IMG/VR virus record: IMGVR_UViG_3300050011_000047
Location: 1 to 14,131 of that record
DNA length: 14,131 nt
From: a virus
Lineage: Duplodnaviria; Heunggongvirae; Uroviricota; Caudoviricetes
Direction: 5' to 3' (one strand)
Below the pieces are notes generated by a model, which was given only the letters and a program-made list of their open reading frames with translations, did not search any database and was not told the DNA's origin. This document shows positions 4,436-13,176 of this stretch, piece after piece. Position 1 is the first letter of the stretch, and each line of letters begins with the position of its first letter. The position numbers were made by a program, and so were the translations under genes.

Positions 4436-4476
4436 GCACCCGGCTCATGTCCGGGGCGTCGGCGGACGCCGGGTGC
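4436..4476 (-). terminator. Intrinsic terminator for the minus-strand tmRNA transcript (possibly bidirectional)
   Basis: 9-bp stem GCACCCGGC/GCCGGGTGC plus inner GTCCG/CGGAC; followed on the minus strand by ATCTTCCTTTTT. Confidence 0.65.
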
Positions 4477-4495
4477 GGTGGGTTGTGTGCCCTGA

Positions 4496-4518
4496 GTGGA
4501 GCCGGAGGGAATCGAACT
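4496..4518 (-). repeat. Displaced second copy of the tmRNA 3' end (T-loop to discriminator)
   Basis: gtggagccggagggaatcgaact versus gtggagccgggggagaatcgaact at 4984-5007; the minus strand reads AGTTCGATTCCCTCCGGCTCCAC. Confidence 0.85.
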
Positions 4519-4535
4519 TCTGCTAAACTGGAGAC

Positions 4536-4979
4536 ATGAACGGTTCCACAAGGAAGTGCGTTACATGCTCACGAAAGTTTGTGCCGTCGAGCGGCCATCG
4601 TTCTTGTCCTTCTTGCCGTAAGGCTGCACGCAAGGATACTTGCAAGTGTGGTCAGCCAAAGCAGAGGACATCCAAGCAATGCCTTCCCTGCGCCAATCGT
4701 GCGAAGGTGTATCCGGGACGCACCCTCCACAAGAAGGGCTACATTCTAGTTCGTGTACTCGAACACCCTCGTGGCCCTTACGTGTTCGAGCACATTCTTG
4801 TGATGGAGAAGCATCTTGGTCGTTACTTACTTCCCGATGAAACTGTCCATCACAAGTACGGCATCAAGGATGATAACCGTCTTAGCCATCTTGAGTTGTG
4901 GGTGAAACCACAACCGGCAGGGATTCGTGCCAAGGATGCCGTGCAGTGGGCCAAGATGATCCTGGCCCGCTACACGTAA
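4536..4979 (+). CDS. Free-standing HNH (HNH_3-like) endonuclease with a Cys-rich N-terminus
   Basis: KGYILV..YVFEHILVMEKHLGRYL..ETVHHKYGIKDDNRLSHLELW; CxxC clusters at the N-terminus; visibly lower GC than the flanks; TAAACT-N6-ATG start. Confidence 0.9.
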   Translation: MNGSTRKCVTCSRKFVPSSGHRSCPSCRKAARKDTCKCGQPKQRTSKQCLPCANRAKVYPGRTLHKKGYILVRVLEHPRGPYVFEHILVMEKHLGRYLLPDETVHHKYGIKDDNRLSHLELWVKPQPAGIRAKDAVQWAKMILARYT

Positions 4980-4981
4980 GA

Positions 4982-5309
4982 TGGTGGAGCCGGGGGAGAA
5001 TCGAACTCCCCGTCTGACCACGGTCGTGCGGTAGGACTTCTAGCAGCATATTGGGGGCATGTGCCCTCCACCAAGTTGCCGTCTTTCCCGGCCTAAGTCA
5101 GCCCGTCTCTCCGGGCCGTCCTCCGCGTGGTGCCCTACGCGAATGAGGGGGAGAAGGCGGGGCGGGGGAGCAGACTCCCGAGCCACGACTTCGCCTTGGC
5201 GAACACGTTGGTGATCGCATTTGGGTTTGCCCTCCGGGCCGGTGCGGTAGTCCGCAAGCCGTCTGCATCCTTGCCGTCGTGTCCGAGCCATCGAAACCAA
5301 GTCGGCCCC
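4982..5309 (-). ncRNA. ssrA: tmRNA (328 nt), phage-encoded
   Basis: 5' GGGGCCGACTTGGTTTCGA and 3' GACGGGGAGTTCGATTCTCCCCCGGCTCCACCA; acceptor stem GGGGCCG/CGGCTCC with the G3-U alanine identity pair; encoded CCA; tag frame 5218->5135. Confidence 0.95.
5135..5218 (-). other. tmRNA tag reading frame: (A)AITNVFAKAKSWLGSLLPRPAFSPSFA-stop
   Basis: Resume context CAAAT|GCG matches the usual xAxxY|GCN pattern; open for 27 codons to TAG. Confidence 0.7.
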
Positions 5310-5332: not shown

Positions 5333-5387
5333 GGACGCGGGTTACCGGACTTGCACCGGCTCGATCCGAGGATGTCTCCCCGCGTCC
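5333..5387 (-). ncRNA. tRNA-like mini-structure without an anticodon arm (unclassified)
   Basis: 9-bp closing stem GGACGCGGG/CCCGCGTCC, small GAG/CTC hairpin, T-arm-like GCCGG-TGCAAGT-CCGGT; the G-U pair favours the minus strand. Confidence 0.45.
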
Positions 5388-5397
5388 GAAGGTTAGT

Positions 5398-13095: not shown

Positions 13096-13170
13096 AGCGG
13101 GGGGGGGTGAAATGGCTTCCACGCCGGGCTCATATCCCGGAAACACTCGGTTCGACTCCGTGACCCGCTA
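13096..13170 (+). tRNA. Degenerate tRNA-Met(CAT), initiator-like
   Basis: Acceptor AGCGGG/CCCGCT, anticodon arm CCGGG-CTCATAT-CCCGG, T-loop TTCGACT, D stem GTG/CAC. Defects: about 2 extra G in a G9 run, no T8, a T-T mismatch in the T stem and no encoded CCA. TGG-TACAGT promoter at 13080-13088. Confidence 0.6.
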
Positions 13171-13176
13171 CTTCCA

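What the first reader, a model, noticed from the sequence alone, without database searches (positions are those of the whole stretch)
4436..5014. Integrase-free HNH cassette inserted at the tmRNA T-loop with its own replacement 3' end
The HNH gene is bracketed by two tmRNA 3' ends (4984-5007 and 4496-4518) whose identity stops exactly at the T-loop. The terminator follows the distal copy, suggesting it is the ancestral end. This is the geometry of integrase-made att duplications, yet the roughly 490-bp insert holds only the HNH gene and its leaderless promoter. The functional copy has a different T-stem (GGGGAG/CTCCCC) from the displaced one (CCCTC). A plausible model is a minimal homing element that cleaves the ancestral ssrA allele of competing phages or the host while carrying a recoded, resistant end.
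Basis: partly seen in the sequence, partly recalled or inferred. Interest (0 to 1): 0.8.

Follow-up and report, generated by a model that had tools for sequence, protein, structure and literature searches.

The report
Homing nuclease cassette at phage tmRNA
A 490-base selfish DNA cassette encoding an HNH nuclease has inserted into the 3' end of this phage's tmRNA (ribosome-rescue RNA) gene, supplying a new working end and pushing the original end downstream, and its relatives sit at the same spot in about a hundred other phage and bacterial loci without needing an integrase.

Summary
Confirmed, and strengthened by an empty allele. A close HNH-less relative of this phage (L260/L261; tmRNA 90% identical) ends its tmRNA with exactly the window's distal copy (23/23 nt, T-stem GAGGG/CCCTC). 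The 493-bp segment 4518-5010 (new 6-bp T-arm, acceptor strand, CCA, antisense HNH gene, leaderless promoter) replaces 3 nt. Streptomyces phage MulchMansion versus LilMartin repeats this anatomy independently, in a genome with no tyrosine integrase. Among close homologs, 100 of 109 scorable loci abut a tmRNA 3' end, against 3 of 77 distant HNHs; the family is under purifying selection. Best reading: a free-standing homing endonuclease (I-HmuI-like fold) that targets ssrA and carries a replacement end, like fungal mitochondrial mORFs. Not supported: a fixed T-loop junction (it varies across members), and 'recoded for resistance' (MulchMansion's new T-arm also occurs in HNH-less phages). Host attack and cleavage are untested. 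I found no paper on this family, but this scan found it before on other DNA (e1-1183788, e1-2240749, e1-720658, e1-1486166).

The parts
4982..5309 (-). Phage tmRNA gene (ssrA), functional copy; resident body plus cassette-borne 3' end
   Evidence: Rfam RF00023 E 7.5e-9; ARAGORN relaxed; acceptor and T stems fold; 90% identical to the empty allele L260
5135..5218 (-). Tag reading frame of the tmRNA (27 codons, begins AITNVF, ends SPSFA)
   Evidence: ARAGORN; near-identical tags in L260 and G001
4982..5010 (-). Replacement 3' end brought by the cassette: 6-bp T-arm (5011-4993), acceptor 3' strand (4992-4986), discriminator A4985, encoded CCA
   Evidence: Identity with the empty allele stops after G5011; T-stem differs from both HNH-less relatives
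4940..4976 (.). 16-bp hairpin inside the last HNH codons, 6 nt after the CCA end; probable two-way transcription stop or processing signal (inferred)
   Evidence: MFE -30.8 kcal/mol, z -5.6 on the tmRNA strand, z -2.9 on the HNH strand
4536..4979 (+). HNH endonuclease gene, 147 aa: two N-terminal Cys-rich zinc fingers, then an HNH_3 catalytic domain (H86, H105, H106, D113, N114 kept; Y108 and H118 replace near-invariant Asn)
   Evidence: PF13392 over cut-off; PHROG 20891 E 1e-28; model pLDDT 91.7, best fold match I-HmuI Z 5.8, rmsd 3.0, 63 residues; I-TevI zinc-finger match E 0.006; conservation
4521..4535 (+). Extended -10 element (TGc TAAACT) 6 nt before the ATG: leaderless promoter (inferred)
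   Evidence: Sequence; TANNNT 5-8 nt before an in-frame start in 62 of 85 family loci against 2 in control windows
4495..4517 (-). Displaced original tmRNA 3' end (T-loop, CCCTC strand, acceptor strand, ACT)
   Evidence: 23/23 identical to the native end of HNH-less L260 and L261
4518..5010 (.). Whole inserted segment: 493 bp replacing 3 nt (AGG) of the empty allele, net +490 bp, GC 53%
   Evidence: Junction count
4436..4476 (.). Resident hairpin between the displaced end and the convergent amidase gene; not part of the cassette
   Evidence: z -3.1; 96.6% identical over 59 nt in the empty allele

Best explanation
A minimal free-standing homing endonuclease cassette that uses the tmRNA gene as its home. 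Shown: the cassette is optional, about 0.5 kb, carries a replacement tmRNA 3' end so the gene stays whole, leaves the resident end behind it, and belongs to an HNH clade that sits almost only at ssrA 3' ends in phages, actinobacteria and CPR bacteria. Inferred: during co-infection (or in a cell with a second ssrA allele) the HNH protein nicks or cuts the uninterrupted ssrA 3' region; repair by homologous recombination copies the cassette, with the tmRNA body as left arm and the T-loop/acceptor fragment plus flank as right arm. The carrier is immune because its site is split: the working end has the upstream context but an altered T-stem and 3' flank, the displaced end lacks everything upstream of the T-loop. 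Which base changes matter is unknown; I put about 0.35 on the T-stem change itself being what protects. The hairpin in the last codons probably keeps the two convergent transcripts apart.
For: Empty allele of the same phage lineage with the distal copy as its native end; second HNH-less relative G001. Independent pair MulchMansion/LilMartin: 445 bp identical, then a 559-bp insert, distal copy equal to the empty end; no PF00589 hit in either complete genome. 100 of 109 scorable loci at 140 bits or more lie within 200 nt of a tmRNA 3' end, 4 more at 0.4-1.2 kb; 3 of 77 below 105 bits (Rfam checks). Patchy: 7 HNH-positive among about 63 relatives of three carrier genomes. Median dN/dS 0.085. Closest solved fold is the homing nickase I-HmuI; the zinc finger resembles that of I-TevI. 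Junction position varies between members, as expected of recombinational repair. Precedent: mORFs that bring a foreign 3' end and displace the native one (PMC3630166).
Against: No cleavage or inheritance data. Only about 16 of 111 loci keep a recognisable distal copy. Known free-standing enzymes often cut far from their own gene (PMC2988022), so the site may lie in the tmRNA body. The new T-arm of MulchMansion exists in HNH-less phages. The window's protein has two changes at near-invariant Asn positions (within the family's usual range) and no obvious third metal ligand was mapped. Fold match is modest (Z 5.8). Loci are not independent events.
Confidence: 0.72

Rival explanations
1. Intronless homing from a distant site: the enzyme cuts in the conserved tmRNA body (or 5' end), and the 3' end is only a co-converted natural donor allele, with no role in immunity.
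For: T4 Seg enzymes cut hundreds of bases from their gene (PMC2988022); the 'new' T-arm is a natural allele in Streptomyces phages; L033 and L200 have identical T-arms in both copies.
Against: MulchMansion is identical to empty LilMartin over the whole tmRNA body, so a body site would be cut in the carrier too; all 10 HNH-positive actinobacterial ends have A after the discriminator against 47 of 55 C in HNH-less ones, which points to the 3' end.
Confidence: 0.12
2. An integrase-made mini-island: the remnant of a larger ssrA island, or a non-autonomous element moved in trans by a tyrosine integrase.
For: The tmRNA-plus-displaced-fragment layout is the Islander signature and T-loop crossovers are a known class (PMC4383910); G000 encodes a tyrosine recombinase at 49,976-50,497.
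Against: Cassette spans cluster at about 0.45-0.66 kb with the HNH gene alone; junctions vary; both orientations occur; MulchMansion has no PF00589 gene; the recombinase is shared with HNH-less relatives and no other copy of the ssrA end lies near it.
Confidence: 0.06
3. A domesticated weapon: the phage uses the nuclease to destroy the host's or a rival phage's ssrA so that its own, oddly tagged tmRNA takes over, with spread as a side effect.
For: Purifying selection; the phage tmRNA has an unusual long tag; SegB has a second role in phage fitness (PMC13096335 abstract).
Against: Most close homologs sit in cellular genomes beside the only ssrA; related phages with the same odd tag lack the gene; the host is unknown.
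Confidence: 0.06
4. The protein acts on tmRNA or its transcript at the RNA level, and the linkage reflects function rather than a DNA target.
For: Tight linkage; in a bacterial sub-group the downstream hairpin contains an inverted copy of the acceptor strand that tracks the local allele (55 of 98 convergent loci, six acceptor variants).
Against: Does not explain precise insertion with end displacement, patchiness, or the DNA-nickase fold with zinc fingers; the window lacks that inverted copy.
Confidence: 0.04

Closest known systems
Mobile endonuclease ORFs (mORFs) of fungal mitochondria, e.g. Allomyces macrogynus atp6 and Glomus atp6/atp9/cox2/nad3 (PMC3630166)
   Same: Endonuclease gene preceded by a foreign 3' end that repairs the target gene; native end displaced downstream and identical to that of an element-less relative; no intron, no integrase.
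   Different: Here the target is a structural RNA gene of phages and bacteria, the enzyme is HNH (not LAGLIDADG or GIY-YIG), usually antisense, with its own leaderless promoter; the replaced piece is only about 29 nt.
Free-standing homing endonucleases of T4-like phages: SegB in the tRNA region, MobE (PMC2988022, PMC2330249 as cited there)
   Same: Stand-alone, optional nuclease gene in a phage, next to conserved RNA genes; MobE is HNH.
   Different: SegB is GIY-YIG and cuts a tRNA intergenic region; these genes do not duplicate a target end, are normally co-oriented with neighbours and cut far from their insertion site.
tRNA/tmRNA-targeting genomic islands (Islander, PMC4383910)
   Same: Restored tmRNA gene plus displaced 3' fragment bracket the insert.
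   Different: No integrase in the element, 0.49 kb (below the 2-kb filter), variable junction, moves without a genome-encoded tyrosine integrase in MulchMansion.
Group I introns in the tmRNA T-loop, some with LAGLIDADG genes (PMC11915505)
   Same: Selfish elements that colonise the same T-arm region of ssrA.
   Different: No intron or splicing here; neutrality comes from a replacement end; different nuclease family.
I-HmuI family of nicking HNH homing endonucleases (PDB 1u3e; PMC3428280)
   Same: Best structural match of the catalytic domain.
   Different: Intron-encoded, N-terminal HNH with C-terminal DNA-binding domain in I-HmuI; here zinc fingers come first and the gene is free-standing.

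Membership tests
Free-standing homing endonuclease gene | Nuclease domain of a homing-endonuclease family | tested here: met
   PF13392 over cut-off; I-HmuI best fold match
Free-standing homing endonuclease gene | Outside any intron or intein | tested here: met
   No intron family in the Rfam scan; own promoter motif; tmRNA folds without it
Free-standing homing endonuclease gene | Optional in close relatives, with a precise empty allele | tested here: met
   L260/L261, G001; LilMartin
Free-standing homing endonuclease gene | Site-specific cleavage of the empty allele | not testable with these tools
   Only positional evidence
Free-standing homing endonuclease gene | Excess inheritance in mixed infection | not testable with these tools
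   Needs crosses
tDNA-targeting genomic island (Islander type) | Intact tDNA plus displaced end fragment in the same orientation | tested here: met
tDNA-targeting genomic island (Islander type) | Tyrosine integrase gene in or overlapping the element | tested here: not met
   493 bp hold only the HNH ORF; the only PF00589 hit is 45 kb away
tDNA-targeting genomic island (Islander type) | Multigene unit of 2 kb or more | tested here: not met
   0.49 kb; criterion from PMC4383910
tmRNA T-loop group I intron with homing endonuclease | Group I intron interrupting the T-loop, LAGLIDADG gene | tested here: not met
   No RF00028-type hit; T-loop is uninterrupted; nuclease is HNH
Fungal mitochondrial mORF (3'-end replacing) | Foreign 3' end, nuclease gene, displaced native end identical to an element-less relative | tested here: met
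   against PMC3630166
Fungal mitochondrial mORF (3'-end replacing) | Mitochondrial protein-coding target; LAGLIDADG or GIY-YIG enzyme | tested here: not met
   Phage RNA gene, HNH enzyme; it works like an mORF but is not a member
I-HmuI-like nickases | Single-strand nicking activity | not testable with these tools
   Fold only, Z 5.8 over 63 residues

The most novel reading that the evidence does not exclude
An undescribed, ssrA-specific homing lineage that moves among phages, actinobacterial chromosomes and CPR bacteria, uses the conserved T-loop/acceptor fragment as a built-in right homology arm, is SOS-regulated in many chromosomes, and so gives an integrase-independent origin for att-like tmRNA duplications and a drive for tmRNA allele exchange.
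Probability: 0.35. Interest if true: 0.8.

Novelty: new variant of a known kind. Interest (0 to 1): 0.62.

Why it matters
It shows a third way, besides integrases and group I introns, for selfish DNA to occupy the tmRNA 3' end, the commonest kind of island site. Displaced tmRNA fragments are read as integrase scars; some may be homing scars. The element could also shuffle or protect ssrA ends and so affect where islands and prophages can integrate. It is directly testable: MulchMansion and LilMartin are cultured Streptomyces phages on the same host that differ by this cassette. A small nuclease aimed at a near-universal bacterial sequence would also be of interest as an enzyme.

Tried and rejected
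ARAGORN at default settings missed the tmRNA. Repeat finding over the whole window missed the duplication because of the 1-nt offset. DNA search of cultured phages found no close relative; the amidase scan of viral contigs found nothing; a tmRNA 5' pattern gave five unrelated phages. The empty allele came through an amidase homolog. Assembly artefact: rejected, the cassette recurs in independent samples (three span the HNH, two end inside it). 'Fixed T-loop crossover': rejected at family level. 'Recoded T-arm is cassette-specific': rejected for MulchMansion. A complete LexA box in the window's promoter: only one half-site, supplied by the T-loop itself; not claimed. Serine recombinase in the phage: no hit. 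Foldseek gave no match at E 0.001. The tree is the quick version with weak support; it clusters tmRNA-adjacent members but does not place the window's protein with a donor. The host could not be identified. Literature searches found no description of HNH genes at ssrA 3' ends; the library lacks most subscription papers. Two unpublished genomes (G030, G067) were left out of all counts.

Full report
Setting. The window is the first 14 kb of a complete 92,362-bp, 63% GC phage genome with capsid, amidase and sortase genes nearby. A divergent tmRNA gene lies at c[4982-5309]. Its predicted fold closes a 7-bp acceptor stem with a G3-U pair and a 6-bp T-stem using the end at 4982-5011. A 147-aa HNH gene (4536-4979, + strand, 53% GC) converges on it and stops 2 nt from the CCA. 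A second 3' end lies beyond the HNH start, at 4495-4517; chance does not give it.

The empty allele. A homolog of the flanking amidase (87% identical) led to two assemblies, L260 and L261, of a related phage with a 90% identical tmRNA, the same kind of tag and no HNH. Its native end reads GAC GAGGG TTCGATT CCCTC CGGCTCC ACT. The window's distal copy equals it over 23 of 23 nt, and the resident hairpin after it (4436-4476) is shared. On the left, identity runs through G5011 and then breaks. The novel segment is 4518-5010, 493 bp in place of AGG. So the distal copy is the displaced original, and the working T-arm GGGGAG/CTCCCC came with the insert. A second relative, G001 (capsid protein 92% identical), also lacks the HNH and has a third T-stem, GTGGG/CCCAC. 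L260 has about 47 extra bases after its end that the window lacks, so the right flank has one further indel of unknown polarity. The cassette is 99.9-100% identical in five other assemblies as far as they reach.

An independent case. The best cultured homolog is gp182 of Streptomyces phage MulchMansion (51% identical), again antisense just after the tmRNA. Against LilMartin the DNA is identical for 445 bp up to the base of the T-arm, then 559 bp are inserted, and the distal copy equals LilMartin's native end. Neither complete genome has a tyrosine integrase hit. The new T-arm differs at three positions, including one compensated pair, but the same T-arm is the native one in HNH-less Sushi23 and Pepperwood. 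It is therefore a donor allele, not proof of recoding for resistance; against Sushi23 the first difference is the base after the discriminator.

The family. About 240 loci were fetched from viral, genome and metagenome collections. Of distinct loci scoring 140 bits or more, 100 have a tmRNA 3' end within 200 nt of the HNH gene, 4 at 0.4-1.2 kb, 5 none, 4 too short; below 105 bits, 3 of 77 scorable loci do. The low-scoring set was screened with a home-made, actinobacteria-biased profile plus Rfam on about 28 loci, so a few divergent tmRNAs may be missed. Carriers are mostly actinobacterial genomes, with CPR bacteria and phages; most are convergent, 13 co-oriented. Among about 63 relatives of three carrier genomes, 7 have the gene. 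All 10 HNH-positive ends in that set have A after the discriminator; 47 of 55 HNH-less ends have C, and most of the 8 exceptions still show the cassette's hairpin. A distal copy is recognisable in about 16 of 111 loci, spans cluster near 0.45-0.66 kb, and the copy starts at different points from the T-stem base to the 3' strand. A -10 box 5-8 nt before the start codon occurs in 62 of 85 loci against 2 in controls. Median dN/dS among close pairs is 0.085 (non-independent pairs, dS partly saturated).

The protein. Two Cys-rich fingers precede an HNH_3 domain. The model is confident (pLDDT 91.7); the best solved match is the homing nickase I-HmuI (Z 5.8, rmsd 3.0, 63 residues), and the second finger resembles that of I-TevI (E 0.006). 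H86, H105, H106, D113 and N114 are kept; Y108 and H118 replace near-invariant Asn, two deviations of 55, which is ordinary for the family. Activity is likely but not shown.

Mechanism. Shown: an optional, one-gene, ssrA-bound cassette that repairs the gene it interrupts. Inferred: the HNH nicks or cuts uninterrupted ssrA near its 3' end, and homologous repair from the carrier copies the cassette; splitting the site between two incomplete copies protects the carrier. In the window the protective change could be the T-stem or the flank after ACC; in bacteria and MulchMansion the base after the discriminator is the better candidate. The 16-bp hairpin at 4940-4976 (z -5.6) replaces the displaced resident hairpin next to the working end; hairpins overlapping the HNH 3' end recur in other members. 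Rivals are a distant cut site, an integrase-made mini-island, a domesticated weapon and an RNA-level role. The phage has a tyrosine recombinase at 50 kb, but so do HNH-less relatives, and no ssrA fragment lies near it.

Comparison. It works like the fungal mitochondrial mORFs that bring a foreign 3' end and displace the native one (PMC3630166) and like T4 free-standing endonucleases (PMC2988022). It has the Islander signature but fails the integrase and size criteria (PMC4383910), and it is not one of the T-loop group I introns (PMC11915505). I found no paper on HNH cassettes at ssrA. Earlier notes of this scan report the same family on other DNA; I treated them as leads and retested the main claims. 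What this locus adds is a base-exact empty allele for a phage, and a cultured pair on which homing can be tested.

Verdict: real, a new variant of a known kind (3'-end-replacing homing cassette aimed at tmRNA genes), interest 0.62.

Noticed in passing
L096, L098, L101, L103, L110, L126 and others, 60 nt upstream of the HNH start: A LexA-type box (TCGAAC-N4-GTTCGA; consensus as in PMC9380542) overlaps the HNH promoter in 28 of 88 cellular or metagenome loci at 3 mismatches or fewer, against 4 in control windows: chromosomal cassettes may be SOS-induced. The T-loop sequence GTTCGA is itself one half-site; the window has only that half.
   Followed up: partly
L095, L098, L115, L122, L003 and others, just after the tmRNA end: In 55 of 98 convergent loci the downstream hairpin carries an exact inverted copy of the local acceptor 3' strand, tracking six different acceptor variants. 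Absent from the window. Unexplained; may bear on insertion or on shielding tmRNA from antisense RNA.
   Followed up: partly
window 5135-5218 (-): Unusual 27-codon tmRNA tag ending SPSFA, conserved in HNH-less relatives L260 and G001, so independent of the cassette.
   Followed up: partly
window 5333-5388 (-): tRNA-like fold without anticodon arm just upstream of the tmRNA; not significant against shuffles (z -0.7) and not conserved in L260 or G001 alignments.
   Followed up: partly
L260 about 1880-1927: The empty allele has an extra hairpin of about 47 nt directly after its tmRNA end that is missing behind the window's displaced end.
   Followed up: no
L359 770-1099 and L360 655-984: Near-identical strains of this phage carry an additional optional Endonuclease_7 (PF02945) gene upstream of the amidase that the window lacks.
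   Followed up: no
G000 14378-14995 and 60950-61459: Two more low-GC ORFs with HNH-like motifs in the same genome; not of this family.
   Followed up: no
window 13099-13171 (+): tRNA-Met(CAT) after the capsid gene, also present in three related contigs.
   Followed up: no
L002 375-684: A homolog lies near a possible permuted (two-piece) tmRNA in a phage contig.
   Followed up: no
L273, L280, L290, L314, L316, L335, L344: ssrA ends with the cassette's signature (AGA after the discriminator plus hairpin) but no HNH hit: probable decayed cassettes.
   Followed up: no
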